64,000 nucleotides of DNA from an uncultured Chloroflexia bacterium (GCA_963810095.1 CAWEMM010000010.1:32001-96000), one strand, 5' to 3'; numbered from the stretch's first letter, positions 28,430 to 56,113 are shown. The notes: a model not told the origin generated them from the sequence alone. Made by a program: numbers and translations.

Positions 28430-29854
28430 ATGCCAACGAAGATCATGATTGAGCCCGTAACCCGCATCGAGGGACACGCCAAGGTTGGCGTGTACCTGGA
28501 CGACCAGGGCCAGGTGGAAAAGGCGGTCTTCCACGTCAACGAGTTCCGCGGCTTCGAGAAGTTCTGCGAAGGCCGCATGTTCTTCGAGATGCCGCTCATC
28601 ACCGAGCGCATCTGCGGCATCTGCCCGGTGAGCCATCATCTGGCTAGTGCTAAGGCATGCGACCAGATTGTGGGCGCGGACGTGCCGCGGCCGGCCAGTC
28701 TGCTGCGCGAGCTGATGCACATGGGGCAGATCATCCAGTCTCACTCCATGCATGTGTTCGAACTGGGCGGGCCCGATCTGTTGCTGGGGTTTGACTGCGA
28801 CCCGAAGATCCGCAACGTTGTGGGGCTGTATGGCGCGAACCCCGAGCTGACCGTCAAGGCGATCGGCCTGCGCAAGTACGGCCAGGACATCATCGCGCGG
28901 CTGGGCGGCCGGCGCGTGCACCCGAACTTCGCGGTGCCGGGCGGCGTGAACCAGGCGCTGGCGGTGACCGACCGCGACGCGCTGCTGGGCGGGATCGATG
29001 GGACTATCGCGGACATCCGCCTGGGTCTTGGCATCATCAAGGGCTGGGTGGAGGCGAACTACGAGGATGTCGCCAAGTTCGGCGTCTTCTCCACCAACTA
29101 CCTCGGCATGGTCGACGAAAACAACGCGGTGCAGCTCTACGATGGCGACGTGCGTATCGTGGACAAGCAGCGGCAGTTCATCAACAAGTTCGACGGCCGC
29201 AAGTACCTCGACTACATCAGCGAGCGGGTGGAGAACTGGACGTACCTGAAGTTCCCGTACTACAAATCGCTGGGCTGGCCAGACGGCGTGTATCGCGTCG
29301 GGCCGCTGGGCCGGCTCAACGCGGCCGAACGCATGGCCACGCCGCTGGCGCAGGAAGAGTATGAAATCTTCCAGCAGGTGCGCGGGGGCCAGGTGCTCGA
29401 GGGAACTCTATACTACCACTACGCCCGCATGATTGAGGACTTGTACGCGGCCGAGCGGGCGAAGGAAATCCTGCTCGACCCGGATGTGCTCAGCACGGAC
29501 ATCCAAGATAACCGCCCGGTGACCAACGCCGAGGGCGTGGGCGTCATCGAAGCCCCGCGCGGCACGCTGTGGCATCACTACTGGGTCGACGAGAACGGTC
29601 AGCTCGAAAAGGTCAACCTGATCGTGGCAACGGGCAACAACAACTGGGCCATGAGCAAGGCGGTCGACTCGGTGGCGAAGACCTACGTGGACGGCAAGAA
29701 CGTCACGGAGGGCCAGCTCAACCGCATCGAAGCGGCCATCCGGGCCTATGACCCGTGCCTGTCGTGCTCCACGCATGCGCTCGGGCAGATGCCGCTCGAA
29801 GTCGTGGTGTATGACGACTCGGGAGACGAAGTCAACCGGGTCATGCGCGGATAA
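28430..29854 (+). CDS. hoxH: Group 3 (3d-like) [NiFe]-hydrogenase large subunit
   Basis: [18 protein letters not shown] (L1), [14 protein letters not shown] (L2) plus a cleavable C-terminal tail. Confidence 0.93.
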
Positions 29855-51476: not shown

Positions 51477-51942
51477 GAACGACATAAACCAGGTTTCTGC
51501 CAGAAACCTGGTTTCGCCCTCATCCTTCGAGCCCGTCATCGTCGGCTTCACCTGCAACTGGTGCTCCTACCGGGCCGCCGACTCGGCCGGCATGGCCCGC
51601 ATCAAGTACGCACCGAACGTGCGGTTGATCCGGCTGATGTGTTCGGGGCGTTGGGACCCGCAATTCGTGCTCAAGGCGTTCAGCGAGGGCGCGGACGCGG
51701 TGCTGGTCAGCGGCTGCCACCCCGGCGACTGCCACTACCTGGAGCAGAACTACAAAACCATCCGCCGTTTCGAGCTGCTGAAGAAGACGTTGGCCGCCCT
51801 GGGCGTCGAAGAGGGCCGGGTGAAGCTGGTCTGGGCGTCGGCCGCCGAGGGCGCCATCTTGGCCGAGGAGATCGACCACATGGTGGCCGAGGTCAAGGCG
51901 CTGGGGCCCCTGAACTGGCCGGGAGGCAAGAATGGCAGCTAA
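51469..51942 (+). CDS. mvhD: MvhD [2Fe-2S] subunit
   Basis: FTCNWCSY.AAD, MCSGR, GCHPGDCHY and WASAAEG. Confidence 0.92.
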   Translation: MPENDINQVSARNLVSPSSFEPVIVGFTCNWCSYRAADSAGMARIKYAPNVRLIRLMCSGRWDPQFVLKAFSEGADAVLVSGCHPGDCHYLEQNYKTIRRFELLKKTLAALGVEEGRVKLVWASAAEGAILAEEIDHMVAEVKALGPLNWPGGKNGS

Positions 51943-52932
51943 CGAGGGCCAGGCGAATGGGCACAAGCCCAAATTCGCGATGTATTGGGCGGCCTCCTGC
52001 GGCGGCTGCGAGATCGCGGTGCTAAACACCCACGAGCTCATTCTGGAGGTCGACGCCAACTTCGACGTCGTCTTCTGGCCCGTCGCAATGGACGCCAAGT
52101 ACAAGGACGTCGAAGCGATGGAGGACGGCTCCATCACGCTCTGTCTCTTCAACGGCGCGATCCGTAACGACGAGAACGAGGAGATGGCCCACTTGCTGCG
52201 TCGGAAATCCCAGATTCTCGTCGCGTTCGGCTCGTGCGCCTGCGAGGGTTGCATTCCCGGACTGGCGAACCTGTACAGCAAGGAGGCCATGCTCGACACG
52301 GCCTTCAGCACGGTCACGACGGACAACCCGCTGAATCTCCGGCCGGTGATCGCATACGATATGCCCGAAGGCAAGATCGAAATCCCGTACATCTACGACA
52401 CGGTGCGCACCCTCGACCAGGTGGTGCGGGTCGACTACACGATGCCCGGTTGCCCGCCCGAGAGCCACCAGATCGCAGCAGTCGTGCAACTGGTCATCGC
52501 AGCCCTCCACGGCGAGGCGAGCCTGCCGCCGCGCGGTTCTGTGATCGGCGCGGGCAACAGCACCGTGTGCGACGAGTGCCAGCGCACGCGCTCGAGAAGG
52601 TGCTCACGGAGTTCCGGCGCATGGCAACCTACCAACCCGAGCCGGTCCAATGCCTGCTCGAGCAGGGGATCCTTTGCTCGGGGATGGCGACCCGCTCGGG
52701 CTGCAACGCCCGCTGCCCGACCGCTAATATGCCTTGCATCGGCTGCTACGGGCCGGCCGCGGGGGTGGTCGACCAGGGCGCGCGCATGATGAGCGCGGTC
52801 GCTTCGGTGATCGGGAGCAACGACCCGAAGGAAATCAGGCGTATCCTTGACGGCATCCCCGATCCTGCCGGGACGTTCTACCGTTTCAGCCTGCCCAGCA
52901 GCCTGCTTCGCCACGGGCGGACGACGAGTTAG
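51932..52932 (+). CDS. mvhG: Group 3c [NiFe]-hydrogenase small subunit (frameshift near 52592)
   Basis: SCGGC, GSCA, PGCPP, VCDEC, then in the shifted frame CLLEQG.LC.G.ATRSGC..RCP..PCIGCYG. Confidence 0.88.
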
Positions 52933-53381
52933 CAACGGATTACACGGATTTCCGGGGCGTTTCATTGGGAGTAGCCTGTGACGCCACTGTTGTATGAGGA
53001 GCTCACCTATGCCGTGATCGGCGCGGCGATGGAAGTGCATAGAACCCTGGGGCCGGGATATCTCGAAGCGGTTTACCAGGCGGCCCTGGCGGAGGAACTC
53101 CGCTTACGCGGAATTCAGTTTGCCGAACAGAAGCCGCTGTCGGTTGTGTACAAAGGCGTCACGGTCGGCCAGTACGTGGCGGACTTTCTGGTGGAAGACT
53201 CTGTCATCCTGGAGCTCAAGGCCGTAACCACGCTTGCAGCCAACCACAAGGCGCAGGCCATCAACTATCTTGCGGCTACAGGTCTCACGTTGGCGCTGCT
53301 GCTAAACCTTGGCGCTCCATCACTGCAACACGAGCGCCTGATCCGTTTACCAAAATCCGCCAAATCCGTGTAATCCGTTGC
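52932..53381. mobile_element. Candidate GxxExxY cassette bounded by a perfect 20-bp inverted repeat
   Basis: gcaacggattacacggattt (52932-52951) is the exact reverse complement of aaatccgtgtaatccgttgc (53362-53381); it interrupts the mvhG-mvhA junction. Confidence 0.65.
52978..53373 (+). CDS. GxxExxY family PD-(D/E)XK nuclease-like protein
   Basis: GTG start; IGAAMEVHRTLGPGYLEAVY, ADFLVEDSVILELKAV, AQAINYL and LLLNLG. Confidence 0.92.
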   Translation: MTPLLYEELTYAVIGAAMEVHRTLGPGYLEAVYQAALAEELRLRGIQFAEQKPLSVVYKGVTVGQYVADFLVEDSVILELKAVTTLAANHKAQAINYLAATGLTLALLLNLGAPSLQHERLIRLPKSAKSV

Positions 53382-53402
53382 CAAGCGGTGTCGGAGGGAG
53401 TA

Positions 53403-54869
53403 ATGCAGAGAATCACGATCGATCCGATCACGCGGCTGGAAGGCCACGGCAAAATTACGATCTTCCTGAACGACGAGGGCGACGTTGCCAACACCTACTT
53501 CCAAATCCCCGAACTGCGCGGGTTCGAGCAGTTTGCGGTGGGCCGCCCCGTCGAGGAAATGGCGGTGATCACGAACCGCATCTGCGGCGTGTGCCCCGAA
53601 GCGCACCACATGGCCGCAGCCAAGGCGGCCGATGCCGCGTATCACGTCACCCCGCCCCGCACCGGCCGCATGTTGCGCGAACTGCTGTACAGCGCCTTCT
53701 ACTGCACCGATCACACGACCCACTTCTATGCGCTGGGCGGCCCGGATTTCATCATGGGACCGGACGCGCCGGTAGCGGAGCGCAATATCCTCGGCGTGAT
53801 CCACAAGGTAGGGCTCGAGGTCGGCGGCAAGGTCATCCAAATGCGCAAGTACGGGCACACAGTCGTCGAAATGATCGGCGGCCGCAAGGTGCACCCGTGC
53901 ACTTCGATTCCGGGCGGCGTGAGCCACGGCATCACGGAGGAGCAGCGCCGGGAGATCGAGGCGATGGGGCGATGGGCCGTCGAGTTCGCCCAGTTCACGA
54001 TGCAGGCCTTCAACGACCTTGTCCTGGGGAACGAGGTCTACCGCGACTTGATCCTTGGCGACGCCTACCTGCACCGCACCTATTCGATCGGGATGGTGGA
54101 CGAGAACAACAAGGTCAACTTCTACGACGGCAAGATCAGCGTGGTCGACCCGAACGGCGCGCGCATCGGAAAATATGCAGCGCCCGAGTACACCGACTGG
54201 ATCGCCGAACACGTCGAGCCGTGGACCTATCTGAAGTTCCCCTATCTCAAGAAGGTGGGCTGGAAGGGGTTTGTCGACGGGCCGGACTCTGGCGTGTACA
54301 TGGCGACGCCCTTGTCGAGGCTCAATGCGGCCGATGGGATGGCTACCCCGTGTGCGCAGGCGGAGTACGAGCGGTTCTATGGCACGATCGGCAGCAAGCC
54401 CGTGCATCACCGGCTGGCGATTCACTGGGCGCGGCTGATCGAGTTGATGTACGCAGCCGAGCGTTGGGTTGAGTTGGCAACCGACCCCGAGATCACTTCG
54501 CCCCACGTGCGCACCGTGCCGGACGCTACGCCCACCGAGGGCGTCGGCGTCGTGGAGGCGCCGCGCGGCACCTTAACCCATCACTACTGGACCGACGAAC
54601 GCGGGGTGGTCACGAGGGCCAACCTGGTTGTGGGCACGACGAACAACTACGCCCCGATCTCGATGTCGATCTCTAAGGCAGCCAGTACGTTCATTAAGCA
54701 CGGGACAGTTGTAACGGAGGGGCTGCTGAACCGGGTCGAAATGGCATTTCGGGCGTACGATCCCTGCTTCGGCTGCGCCACCCACAGCCTGCCCGGTCAA
54801 ATGCCGCTCGAACTGACCATCCGCGACGCGGCCGGCGAAGTCGTGCAGATTTTGCGACGCGATGGATAG
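53403..54869 (+). CDS. mvhA: Group 3c [NiFe]-hydrogenase large subunit
   Basis: DPITRLEGH, RICGVCPEAH, EAPRG, DPCFGCATH plus tail. Confidence 0.92.
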   Translation: MQRITIDPITRLEGHGKITIFLNDEGDVANTYFQIPELRGFEQFAVGRPVEEMAVITNRICGVCPEAHHMAAAKAADAAYHVTPPRTGRMLRELLYSAFYCTDHTTHFYALGGPDFIMGPDAPVAERNILGVIHKVGLEVGGKVIQMRKYGHTVVEMIGGRKVHPCTSIPGGVSHGITEEQRREIEAMGRWAVEFAQFTMQAFNDLVLGNEVYRDLILGDAYLHRTYSIGMVDENNKVNFYDGKISVVDPNGARIGKYAAPEYTDWIAEHVEPWTYLKFPYLKKVGWKGFVDGPDSGVYMATPLSRLNAADGMATPCAQAEYERFYGTIGSKPVHHRLAIHWARLIELMYAAERWVELATDPEITSPHVRTVPDATPTEGVGVVEAPRGTLTHHYWTDERGVVTRANLVVGTTNNYAPISMSISKAASTFIKHGTVVTEGLLNRVEMAFRAYDPCFGCATHSLPGQMPLELTIRDAAGEVVQILRRDG

Positions 54870-54875
54870 TCCCTC

Positions 54876-54941
54876 TCAACACAAAGACACCGAGGCACAA
54901 TGAAACCTCACCACCTCCGTGTCTTTGTGCCTTTGTGTTGA
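54876..54941. repeat. Inverted-repeat element, 'ACACAAAG' family, copy 3
   Basis: tcaacacaaagacaccgaggcacaa...gtgtctttgtgcctttgtgttga. Confidence 0.85.
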
Positions 54942-55423: not shown

Positions 55424-55447
55424 GAGGGGCTGGCGCGGGTTGAGCTT

Positions 55448-55510
55448 AACCACAAAGACACCAAGAAACGAAGGTTCTGTGCCCTTCAGTGTCTTCGTGT
55501 CTTTGTGTTG
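55448..55510. repeat. Inverted-repeat element, 'ACACAAAG' family, copy 4
   Basis: aaccacaaagacaccaag...gtgtcttcgtgtctttgtgttg. Confidence 0.82.
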
Positions 55511-55572
55511 AGTGCCTTAGGTCCACAGGGACGCGACCGGCCCAGCCCCCATCAGGATAAGGGAGGGACCAC

Positions 55573-56028
55573 ATGATCTCACCGGAGATGTTACGCCGCC
55601 ACAGGTTTTCGGGCGGGCTGCGCGATGACGAGCTGGCAGCGATTGCCATGATTGCAGAGGAGTGCGGGTATCCCGACGGGGGCATCATCTTTCGCGAGGG
55701 TGAGCGGGCCGGGCACTTCTACATCCTGACGTCAGGCAGTGTGGACCTGGTCTACGAAATCCACCATCCCGGTGGTGTCGACACGTCCTACGTCGGCTCA
55801 ATCAACACAGGAGAGCCGTTCGGCATCTCGGCGTTCGTCGAACCTTACATCTTCAATGCTACGGGGCAGGCGCACGGCGCCGTCAAGGCGATCGCGATCG
55901 ACGCGGCCGCGCTGCGCGCGCTGTCGGAAGTCGACTGCCATCTCGGCTACACGGTCATGCGGCAGGTCGCAGTCGCCTTGGCCGAGCGCCTCAACTTTGC
56001 GCGGGTGCAGCTCGCCGCGTGCGGGTGA
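55573..56028 (+). CDS. Stand-alone cyclic-nucleotide-binding (Crp-type) domain protein, no HTH
   Basis: IFREGE..FYILTSGSV..GEPFG; 151 aa. Confidence 0.85.
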   Translation: MISPEMLRRHRFSGGLRDDELAAIAMIAEECGYPDGGIIFREGERAGHFYILTSGSVDLVYEIHHPGGVDTSYVGSINTGEPFGISAFVEPYIFNATGQAHGAVKAIAIDAAALRALSEVDCHLGYTVMRQVAVALAERLNFARVQLAACG

Positions 56029-56034
56029 GAAGAC

Positions 56035-56113
56035 ATAACACAAAGACACGAGAGCGCAACCGAGCCGGAGCAGGTCCGCCTTGCATCTTCGTGTCTTTGT
56101 GGCTTTGTGTTAT
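56035..56113. repeat. Inverted-repeat element, 'ACACAAAG' family, copy 5
   Basis: ataacacaaagacac...gtgtctttgtggctttgtgttat between convergent stop codons. Confidence 0.85.

What the first reader, a model, noticed from the sequence alone, without database searches (positions are those of the whole stretch)
52932..53381. GxxExxY nuclease gene boxed by a perfect 20-bp inverted repeat inside mvhG-mvhA: candidate autonomous element of an uncharacterised selfish repeat system
Seen: a 131-aa GxxExxY protein (GYLEAVY; D..ELK PD-(D/E)XK-like site) with no hydrogenase role sits between mvhG and mvhA. It is flanked by gcaacggattacacggattt and its exact reverse complement. The left arm starts in the mvhG stop codon. 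The right arm encodes the protein's tail (KSAKSV) and its stop codon. The arms are built of ~9-bp tandem (c)ggatt units. No target-site duplication is evident. Established: GxxExxY proteins are widespread PD-(D/E)XK-fold proteins without an assigned function. Inference: gene plus arms form a mobile or homing cassette, analogous to RAYT + REP but using a restriction-fold nuclease. The many empty elements of the same architecture in this window (next findings) would be its non-autonomous derivatives.
Basis: partly seen in the sequence, partly recalled or inferred. Interest (0 to 1): 0.85.

Follow-up and report, generated by a model that had tools for sequence, protein, structure and literature searches.

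The report
Nuclease gene boxed in phased repeats
A small nuclease gene of unknown function sits between two hydrogenase genes inside mirror-image arms built from a repeated 7-base word, and it belongs to a widespread, apparently undescribed kind of selfish gene-plus-repeat cassette, although this copy looks like an old resident, not a recent arrival.

Summary
Window 52929-53384 holds a 131-aa GxxExxY / PF13366 nuclease-fold gene. It is closed by a perfect 20-nt inverted repeat (23 nt at 96%) made of CGGATT words every 9 nt, and lies between the stop codon of the hydrogenase small-subunit gene and the ribosome-binding site of the large-subunit gene.

In my own surveys, 164 of 212 GxxExxY genes carry such arms, against 12 of 766 control placements. 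Arm words follow the protein clade. Arms stay conserved where synonymous sites are saturated. In seven pairs, gene plus arms are 83-91% identical while about 1 kb of flank on each side is unrelated, so the unit moves.

At the orthologous junction, 17 genomes show 5 cassettes, 5 empty sites, 3 gene-less hairpins of other word families and 4 other states. One origin for the junction cassettes is not rejected, so this copy is probably old, with later losses.

Arm mismatches show no G·U bias, which favours a DNA-level constraint. The gene points with its operon in 84 of 90 cases.

The empty elements in this window belong to another word family, and no mechanism is shown. This scan has flagged the same pairing on other DNA many times. 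I found no paper describing it.

The parts
51932..52932 (+). [NiFe]-hydrogenase small-subunit gene (mvhG-like); the assembly splits it into two frames near 52590; its TAG stop (52930-52932) lies inside the extended left arm
   Evidence: ORFs 51932-52789 and 52234-52932; PF01058; a contig of run X4 has one extra T after 52593 that joins the frames
52929..52951 (.). left arm: perfect core 52932-52951, extended repeat from 52929; CGGATT words at 52936-41 and 52945-50 (period 9)
52967..52971 (+). GGGAG, a ribosome-binding-site-like motif 6 nt before the GTG start
   Evidence: read from the sequence; no promoter-like site in 52600-53700
52978..53373 (+). GxxExxY gene, 131 aa, PD-(D/E)XK fold with D69/E79/K81; the last ~8 residues are a read-through into the right arm (most relatives have 123 aa)
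   Evidence: AlphaFold2 pLDDT 90.9, residues 127-131 below 50; nuclease-fold matches
53353..53384 (.). right arm: three AATCCG words (53354-59, 53363-68, 53372-77), perfect core 53362-53381, extended repeat to 53384; contains the gene's TAA
53393..54869 (+). GGAGGGAG ribosome-binding site (53393-53400) and [NiFe]-hydrogenase large-subunit gene (mvhA-like; ATG at 53403)
   Evidence: PF00374

Best explanation
The block 52929-53384 is a GxxExxY cassette. It is a gene without a promoter of its own but with its own ribosome-binding site. It encodes a small PD-(D/E)XK nuclease and is enclosed by inverted arms made of a 7-nt word (ACGGATT) phased every 9 nt. It sits exactly between a stop codon and the next gene's ribosome-binding site.

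Shown here: such gene-plus-arms units are the normal packaging of this family across many phyla. They occur as discrete units in unrelated contexts. Their arm words follow the nuclease clade and stay conserved while synonymous sites saturate. The gene points with the host operon.

Inferred: the nuclease recognises its own arms as DNA. It cuts at or near them, and host repair or recombination then copies or removes the unit. This is a selfish repeat-plus-enzyme system laid out like REP/RAYT, but with a restriction-fold enzyme and no recombinase of its own. Gene-less hairpins would be decayed or vacated shells, and possibly landing sites.

Also inferred: the gene is transcribed by read-through from the hydrogenase operon, and the 20-bp stem would be an RNase III substrate in that RNA.

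This particular copy is most likely an old, vertically inherited resident of the junction. It was lost from several relatives, two of the same genus among them, and other hairpin families occupy the site in other relatives.
For: Packaging. A flanking inverted repeat of score 28 or more was found in 52 of 62 genes from 32 related genomes against 6 of 320 shifted control placements. In 79 loci from more than ten phyla it was 58 of 79 against 5 of 372. In metagenome contigs it was 54 of 71 against 1 of 74.

Unit mobility. Seven pairs (groups L197/L201/L243, L138/L147/L210, L151/L164) are 83-91% identical over 450-542 nt of gene plus arms. They have 0 tblastx hits in about 1 kb of flank on each side. 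In the two pairs whose ends I aligned, homology ends within about 10 nt of the arms.

Turnover. Of 17 orthologous junctions, 5 hold a cassette, 5 are empty (9-15 bp), 3 hold gene-less hairpins of other words and 4 are in other states. Two other junctions hold cassettes of different clades and words in different genomes.

Constraint on the arms. Shared arm 6-mers fall with protein distance: 0.66 below 20% distance, 0.29 at 30-40%, 0.05 at baseline; Spearman -0.37; 0 of 500 permutations as low (tree). dN/dS is 0.08-0.14 in 7 pairs, and dS is above 1.4 or not computable in all 15 pairs. The arms nevertheless keep the same word and their complementarity.

DNA rather than sense RNA. Across 110 cassettes there are 108 G·U-type against 118 A·C-type arm mismatches, p = 0.55.

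Riding the operon. When both neighbours point the same way, the gene agrees with them in 84 of 90 cases. There is no promoter-like site.

Nuclease. D69, E79 and H90 are invariant and K81 is conserved in at least 90% of 54 relatives. The fold matches restriction enzymes and Cas4.

Old resident. Holding the 5 junction cassettes together gives a tree 12.5 log-likelihood units better than the free search, p-AU 0.67.

Patchy copy number. 0 to 18 copies per genome in 41 genomes; 0-3 within the genus.
Against: No binding, cutting or movement has been observed. The cassette has no recombinase or transposase and no target-site duplication. This genome holds no near-identical second copy and only one gene-less hairpin with this exact arm.

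Co-variation of arms and protein is expected for any tightly linked DNA, and related sequences are not independent. The G·U test has limited power and its local alignments were chosen by score. The orientation count rests on a crude gene call (the longest open frame).

Hairpin families can be abundant without a cognate gene in the same genome. The ACTGATT family has about 16 copies here and no matching gene, though the genome is only 88.5% complete.

48 of 212 genes lacked arms at my threshold. I set that threshold after seeing the control distribution, whose 95th percentile was 25.
Confidence: 0.5

Rival explanations
1. RNA-level, IVS-like element. What matters is the stem that the arms form in the operon transcript. 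RNase III cuts it, releasing a separate nuclease mRNA and decoupling the two hydrogenase messages. The nuclease has a job unrelated to the arms and may act on RNA.
For: The arms pair as a 20-bp closing stem in both the minimum-energy and the centroid RNA fold (z = -2.8; 0 of 100 shuffles fold as well). The gene is co-oriented with its operon in 84 of 90 cases. There is no promoter-like site. The hairpins sit at gene 3' ends and only 1 of 44 lies between divergent genes. The 23S rRNA intervening sequence of Coxiella is a 428-nt ORF-bearing element excised by RNase III (PMC4990558, abstract read).
Against: There is no excess of G·U-compatible mismatches on the coding strand (108 against 118). 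RNase III needs no particular sequence, yet the words are clade-specific and conserved across phyla. 18 of 44 hairpins lie between convergent genes. No Rfam family matches. No RNA run was available to test processing.
Confidence: 0.2
2. Cargo model. The phased hairpins are the mobile or recombining entity. An unlinked enzyme, from the host or another element, handles them as with MITEs or integron attC sites. GxxExxY is only their commonest passenger.
For: Gene-less hairpins far outnumber the genes: at least 44 against 3 in this genome. A whole word family (ACTGATT) has no cognate gene here. A cNMP-binding gene also lies between two hairpins. Many cassettes have the form hairpin-gene-hairpin. 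The same junction is refilled by different families.
Against: The arm words follow the GxxExxY clade. The family is boxed in 164 of 212 cases against 12 of 766 controls. The ACTGATT family does have a gene-bearing form with the same termini in a related genome (L070). I did not search for a candidate recombinase, so this model is not excluded.
Confidence: 0.2
3. No system. The arms arose locally by slippage and palindrome formation next to an ordinary gene, or the repeat is a chance match.
For: Word number and loops vary from copy to copy, and tandem hairpin arrays occur. Slippage therefore does act on these repeats.
Against: 0 of 100 shuffles give the repeat. The association holds in three independent samples. 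The same words occur in different phyla. Homology limited to the cassette occurs in unrelated contexts.
Confidence: 0.03

Closest known systems
REP/REPIN elements with their RAYT (TnpA-REP, HUH Y1) genes
   Same: A single enzyme gene is flanked by inverted copies of a short repeat. That repeat also occurs many times without the gene, mostly at gene 3' ends. The repeat type goes with the enzyme clade.
   Different: The enzyme here is a PD-(D/E)XK nuclease (PF13366), not an HUH transposase. The arms are arrays of a 7-nt word phased every 8-9 nt, not single GC-rich palindromes.
ORF-bearing intervening sequences of 23S rRNA (Coxiella burnetii IVS with S23p; PMC4990558, abstract read)
   Same: An insert of about 430-450 nt that carries a small ORF, is closed by a stem, lies in a transcribed region, is patchily distributed, and is inherited vertically after acquisition.
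   Different: This one lies between protein genes, not in an rRNA helix. Its ORF belongs to another family, and no TIGR02436 match exists in this genome. RNase III excision is untested, and the G·U test gives no sign of an RNA-level constraint.
Free-standing homing endonuclease genes (PD-(D/E)XK examples such as I-Bth0305I, PDB 3r3p, Z 5.1)
   Same: A small nuclease gene with a filled/empty polymorphism at one site and no recombinase. Spread by cleavage plus host repair is conceivable.
   Different: Homing genes carry no phased inverted arms and leave no gene-less repeat shells. Related cassettes here sit in unrelated contexts, which plain allelic homing does not explain.
MITEs and Correia-type elements
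   Same: Short, inverted-repeat-bounded, non-coding inserts in intergenic spacers of operons.
   Different: No target-site duplication and no related transposase-bearing IS. The arms are made of phased words. This comparison is recalled, not read.
Tandem heptamer repeats of cyanobacteria, Beggiatoaceae and Bacteroidetes (TAACTGA repeats; PMC4679880, abstract read)
   Same: Short words repeated in intergenic spacers close to start codons, shared by distant phyla with no known means of transfer. The ACTGATTGA family of this genome shares the AACTGA core.
   Different: Those are described as direct repeats with one indirect case. No nuclease gene or hairpin architecture is reported in the abstract. 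The link is a lead only.

Membership tests
GxxExxY protein (NCBIfam TIGR04256 / Pfam PF13366 PDDEXK_3) | Full-length match above the curated cut-off | tested here: met
   144.5 bits against a cut-off of 35, positions 1-116 of 116; 139.1 bits against 22
PD-(D/E)XK nuclease superfamily | alpha-beta-beta-beta-alpha-beta core with D...(D/E)xK | tested here: met
   D69 and E79 are invariant and K81 is at least 90% conserved in 54 sequences. The model (pLDDT 90.9) matches restriction enzymes, Cas4 and lambda exonuclease, with best Z 7.9, rmsd 2.8 and 94 residues aligned
PD-(D/E)XK nuclease superfamily | Metal-dependent phosphodiester cleavage | not testable with these tools
   needs purified protein
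REP/RAYT (REPtron) | Enzyme is an HUH Y1 transposase | tested here: not met
   only PF13366 and TIGR04256 match
REP/RAYT (REPtron) | Enzyme gene flanked by inverted cognate repeats, which also occur without the gene | tested here: met
MITE / insertion sequence | Target-site duplication next to the terminal inverted repeats | tested here: not met
   none at this cassette, at the paralogues or at the ends mapped
MITE / insertion sequence | Related autonomous element that encodes a transposase | tested here: not met
   the only ORF between the arms is the nuclease; unlinked transposases were not searched
23S rRNA intervening sequence | Inserted in an rRNA helix | tested here: not met
   it lies between hydrogenase subunit genes
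23S rRNA intervening sequence | Closing stem cut by RNase III | not testable with these tools
   the stem is predicted; no RNA run is listed
Homing endonuclease gene | Filled and empty alleles of one site | tested here: met
   5 filled and 5 empty of 17 junctions
Homing endonuclease gene | Enzyme cleaves the empty allele | not testable with these tools
   needs an assay
Integron gene cassette | attC site recombined by an IntI integrase | not tested
   no search for IntI or attC models was made
Known anti-phage defence systems (PADLOC-DB) | Match to a defence protein model | tested here: not met
   0 families at E <= 0.01

The most novel reading that the evidence does not exclude
GxxExxY nucleases and their phased-word arms are a cross-phylum class of mobile DNA that spreads without a recombinase of its own. 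The nuclease reads arrays of its 7-nt word on both arms and cuts there. Host repair then copies the unit into new or already occupied intergenic junctions. This leaves gene-less hairpins that account for many unexplained intergenic repeat families, possibly including heptamer repeats and rRNA intervening sequences.
Probability: 0.35. Interest if true: 0.85.

Novelty: new variant of a known kind. Interest (0 to 1): 0.68.

Why it matters
PF13366/GxxExxY is a very large family with no assigned function; it is listed as 'Unknown' in the 2012 survey of the superfamily (PMC3424549, passage read). Tying it to a specific, conserved DNA context gives it a testable substrate: its own arms.

If the nuclease acts on those arms, three things follow. 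First, this is a second repeat-plus-enzyme system of the REP/RAYT kind, built on a different fold. Second, it would explain many phased intergenic hairpins that fill operon junctions in Chloroflexota, Planctomycetota, Verrucomicrobiota, Bacteroidota, Acidobacteriota and other phyla. Third, it offers nucleases whose short recognition words appear to change with the protein clade.

For genome annotation, these cassettes split operons, extend or terminate neighbouring ORFs, and should be masked as elements.

Tried and rejected
1. Homodimer prediction: no verdict, so it says nothing for or against binding.

2. RNA evidence: no RNA holder is listed for this stretch. The four DNA runs I laid are short contigs, and none bridges an empty junction, so they do not bear on population polymorphism.

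3. Sequence search of the PDB: no relative found; the best hit had E = 0.98.

4. Rfam: 0 matches at E <= 1 in 52600-53700.

5. Promoter and terminator scan: 0 promoter-like sites. The one terminator-like site lies inside the ORF, and 0.7 are expected by chance.

6. I first read 'purine-rich arm first' as an orientation of gene or hairpin relative to transcription. I rejected this because the property is the same on both strands of any inverted repeat.

7. My first gene caller mis-called antisense frames and was replaced.

8. Automatic word classes by 5-mer gave no usable test, with 37 of 52 cassettes falling into 'other'. I replaced this with the 6-mer sharing test.

9. The free tree of 80 proteins is poorly resolved, with 39 of 76 branches open. 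Only the AU test was used.

10. Four-helix-bundle (TIGR02436) cassettes, a lead from earlier notes: no match in this genome.

11. Herpetosiphon aurantiacus DSM 785 as a cultured model: it has only one full-length match, with an internal TAG, plus a broken copy. The copy I examined lacks arms.

12. The metagenome scan did not recover the 84% and 75% relatives seen, so their context is unknown.

13. G002's 87-nt spacer may be a decayed remnant, since it holds CACGAT and AATTCGTG words. This is not established.

Full report
THE OBSERVATION

The window holds GCAACGGATTACACGGATTT at 52932-52951 and its exact reverse complement at 53362-53381. With up to three mismatches these are the only two matches in 64 kb; 0.01 are expected, and none of 100 shuffles gave two. 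The repeat extends to 23 nt at 96%.

The left arm begins at the G of the TAG that closes the small-subunit ORF. The right arm contains the last codons and the TAA of ORF 52978-53373. Both arms are made of CGGATT words every 9 nt, two on the left and three on the right.

The ORF is a full-length GxxExxY protein: TIGR04256 at 144.5 bits and PF13366 at 139.1 bits. A GGGAG motif lies 6 nt before its GTG start. I found no promoter-like site and no Rfam match in 52600-53700.

The neighbours are a [NiFe]-hydrogenase small subunit (PF01058) and large subunit (PF00374). They follow MvhD/FlpD and an HdrA-like gene and precede a HycI protease gene.

THE PROTEIN

AlphaFold2 with 54 relatives gives a confident model (pLDDT 90.9, pTM 0.83). 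Only the last residues, 127-131, fall below 50. Those residues are encoded by the right arm. Most relatives are 123 aa long, so this copy reads through into its arm.

D69 and E79 are invariant, and K81 is conserved in at least 90% of the 54 sequences.

Foldseek and VIA-align find only generic restriction-fold relatives: the BpuSI nuclease domain (Z 7.9), AF1548, Cas4 SSO0001, TT1808, lambda exonuclease, Hjc and the splicing endonuclease. No solved relative is found by sequence, and no PADLOC defence model matches.

THIS GENOME

The assembly (6.13 Mb, 16 contigs, 88.5% complete) has three GxxExxY genes. Each is boxed by arms of a different word:
- this one, by ACGGATT;
- C6:1630272-1630634, by a perfect 18-nt repeat of CACGAATT words of period 9;
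- C6:96890-97216, by an imperfect repeat that contains GGCACAAAGG.

A scan for perfect arms of 14 nt or more with periodic, low-GC content found 44 gene-less hairpins. They fall into families built on CACAAAGA (period 8), ACTGATTGA (period 9, with conserved AATGGGAC...GTCCCATT ends) and CACGAATT. One hairpin, at C7:13385, carries this cassette's exact left arm.

By a crude gene call, 23 of the 44 lie between co-directional genes, 18 between convergent genes, 1 between divergent genes and 2 inside called genes.

The three hairpins further down this operon (about 54877-54940, 55447-55512 and 56036-56113) belong to the CACAAAGA family, not to this gene's word.

IS THE PACKAGING GENERAL?

I took the same geometry in three samples: 420 nt upstream of the gene against the reverse complement of 280 nt around and after its stop codon. 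As controls I used the same loci shifted by 1-2.2 kb. At score 28 or more the counts were:
- 52 of 62 genes against 6 of 320 controls, from 32 of 41 related genomes;
- 58 of 79 against 5 of 372, in loci titled as Chloroflexota, Planctomycetota, Verrucomicrobiota, Bacteroidota, Acidobacteriota, NC10, Poribacteria, Cloacimonadota and others (one of the 80 loci was too near a contig end);
- 54 of 71 against 1 of 74, in metagenome contigs (nine were too near an end).

The threshold was set after seeing the first control distribution, whose 95th percentile was 25. Many cassettes have the form hairpin-gene-hairpin instead of one arm on each side.

DO ARMS AND PROTEIN GO TOGETHER?

On a tree of the 62 proteins the words cluster by clade. 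One half carries ...GRATT words of period 9. The other half carries CRCARAG words of period 8, with sub-clades for ACGCGGA, ACAGGAT, CTGAT and CGCAGAG.

Over 164 cassettes, the fraction of shared arm 6-mers falls from 0.66 at under 20% protein distance, to 0.29 at 30-40%, to 0.05 at baseline. Spearman's correlation is -0.37, and 0 of 500 permutations were as low. Related sequences are not independent, so that count overstates the support.

Among the orthologous cassettes of the hydrogenase junction and the second paralogue, dN/dS is 0.08-0.14 in 7 pairs. dS is 1.4-2.6 in those pairs and not computable in the other 8 of 15. Neutral sites are therefore saturated, yet the non-coding arms keep the same word and their complementarity. 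The arms are under constraint.

DOES THE UNIT MOVE?

An all-against-all nucleotide comparison of cassettes with 1.1 kb of flank gave seven pairs, in three groups, that are 83-91% identical over 450-542 nt covering only gene and arms. They have no tblastx hit (E <= 1e-3) in 709-1370 nt of flank on either side. In the two pairs I aligned at the ends, homology stops within about 10 nt of the arms. An eighth pair (L101/L174) had a short flank with hits, and a ninth was too short. Neither is counted.

The converse also occurs, with homologous flanks around different cassettes:
- At the junction before the thymidylyltransferase-like gene, this genome has a CACGAATT cassette. Two related genomes have CTGAT-word cassettes of another protein clade.
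- At a junction before a gene that begins MxPIKLLHTADIH, two genomes have CGCAAAG cassettes and five have ACGCGGA cassettes.

THIS JUNCTION IN RELATIVES

Seventeen loci show both subunit genes:
- Five hold a GxxExxY cassette: this window, G023, G022, G017 (frameshifted gene) and G021.
- Five are empty, with 9-15 bp between stop and start: G007 and G001 of the same genus, plus G016, G011 and G014.
- Three hold gene-less phased hairpins of unrelated words: GTAGACAAGG in G015, and TGGTAAAC-type in G009 and G020.
- Four are in other states, including a 905-bp insert with two small ORFs in G018 and an 87-nt spacer in G002 that may be a remnant.

A sixth cassette at this junction is in a Thermoflexales genome (L091).

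The protein tree is poorly resolved. Holding five junction cassettes together gives a tree 12.5 log-likelihood units better than the free search, with p-AU 0.67. One ancient insertion followed by losses is therefore the simpler reading for this copy.

DNA OR RNA?

As RNA, the arms close the whole cassette with a 20-bp stem in both the minimum-energy and the centroid fold (z = -2.8). When both neighbours point the same way, the gene agrees with them in 84 of 90 cases; 118 loci were scored and 23 skipped for short flanks, using the longest-open-frame call. That fits expression by read-through.

Selection for pairing in the sense RNA should, however, favour G·U-compatible mismatches on the coding strand. 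In 110 cassettes I counted 108 such mismatches against 118 of the opposite kind (A·C), with 256 transversion-type mismatches and 3296 pairs; p = 0.55. Together with the clade-specific words, this points to a strand-symmetric, DNA-level constraint. RNase III cutting of the stem may still occur as a side effect. No RNA run was available.

COMPARISON WITH WHAT IS KNOWN

The layout matches REP/RAYT in logic, but the enzyme is not an HUH transposase and the arms are phased word arrays. It resembles ORF-bearing rRNA intervening sequences in size and stem (PMC4990558, abstract), but it is not in rRNA. It resembles homing endonuclease genes in lacking a recombinase, but it has arms and shells. No target-site duplication is seen.

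I found no description of this pairing. The searches were:
- 'GxxExxY': 3 papers. One passage read, which concerns a cas4-like call. The second listed paper was seen only in the listing, and the third was not listed.
- 'PDDEXK_3' and 'PF13366': the 2012 superfamily survey lists the family as 'Unknown' with 'multiple transfers' (passage read). The other paper holding 'PF13366' was seen only in the listing.
- 'TIGR04256': 0 papers.
- Searches on intervening sequences, S23p and heptamer repeats.

Subscription journals are not covered. Supplements were not consulted.

EARLIER NOTES OF THIS SCAN

A word search returned 558 notes in at least 474 genomes that mention GxxExxY with inverted repeats. 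The scan has therefore found this before on other DNA. I treated those notes as leads and re-tested the core claims on my own samples.

VERDICT

The feature is real, is one member of a large and apparently undescribed class, and is best read as a selfish nuclease cassette whose arms are its own recognition arrays (confidence 0.5). This copy is probably old and vertically inherited. The mechanism remains inference.

Noticed in passing
window 52585-52600: The hydrogenase small-subunit gene is split into two frames (ORFs 51932-52789 and 52234-52932). A contig of run X4 carries one extra T after 52593, which would join the frames. This is probably an assembly error or a strain difference, not a dead gene.
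   Followed up: partly
window 54877-54940, 55447-55512, 56036-56113: Three gene-less hairpins of CACAAAGA-type words (period 8) fill the next three junctions of the operon: after the large subunit, after the HycI protease gene, and after a cNMP-binding gene (55573-56028). That last gene therefore lies between two hairpins.
   Followed up: partly
G000:C7:13385-13500: The only other exact copy of this cassette's 20-nt arm opens a gene-less element. Its right arm is degenerate and its core is a separate 34-nt palindrome (GAAACCTGGTTTC...).
   Followed up: partly
L018 (G018:C108), between the hydrogenase subunit genes: A 905-bp insert with two small ORFs and a GC-rich palindrome occupies the junction in place of a GxxExxY cassette. 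Not identified.
   Followed up: no
L054 (G010:C109), downstream of its GxxExxY gene: At least four tandem copies of a ~75-nt hairpin unit of CGCAAAG words follow the gene, so hairpin units can amplify in tandem.
   Followed up: no
L201, flanks of its cassette: The cassette lies inside a second, unrelated inverted repeat (GGGTGYAATCRGAAGTGGGAGTCA), which suggests insertion into the loop of another palindromic element. The right-hand copy also follows the related cassette in L243.
   Followed up: no
G033:C27:56616-57389 and similar rows: Several genomes hold two GxxExxY domains in tandem within one open frame of about 270-300 aa. These score lower than the single-domain genes.
   Followed up: no
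G000, ACTGATTGA hairpin family (about 16 copies): The word shares its AACTGA core with the TAACTGA heptamer repeats reported from Beggiatoaceae, cyanobacteria and Bacteroidetes (PMC4679880, abstract). A gene-bearing cassette with the same termini exists in a related genome (L070).
   Followed up: partly
window 28439-29842: A second [NiFe]-hydrogenase large-subunit paralogue, 44% identical to the one beside the cassette.
   Followed up: no
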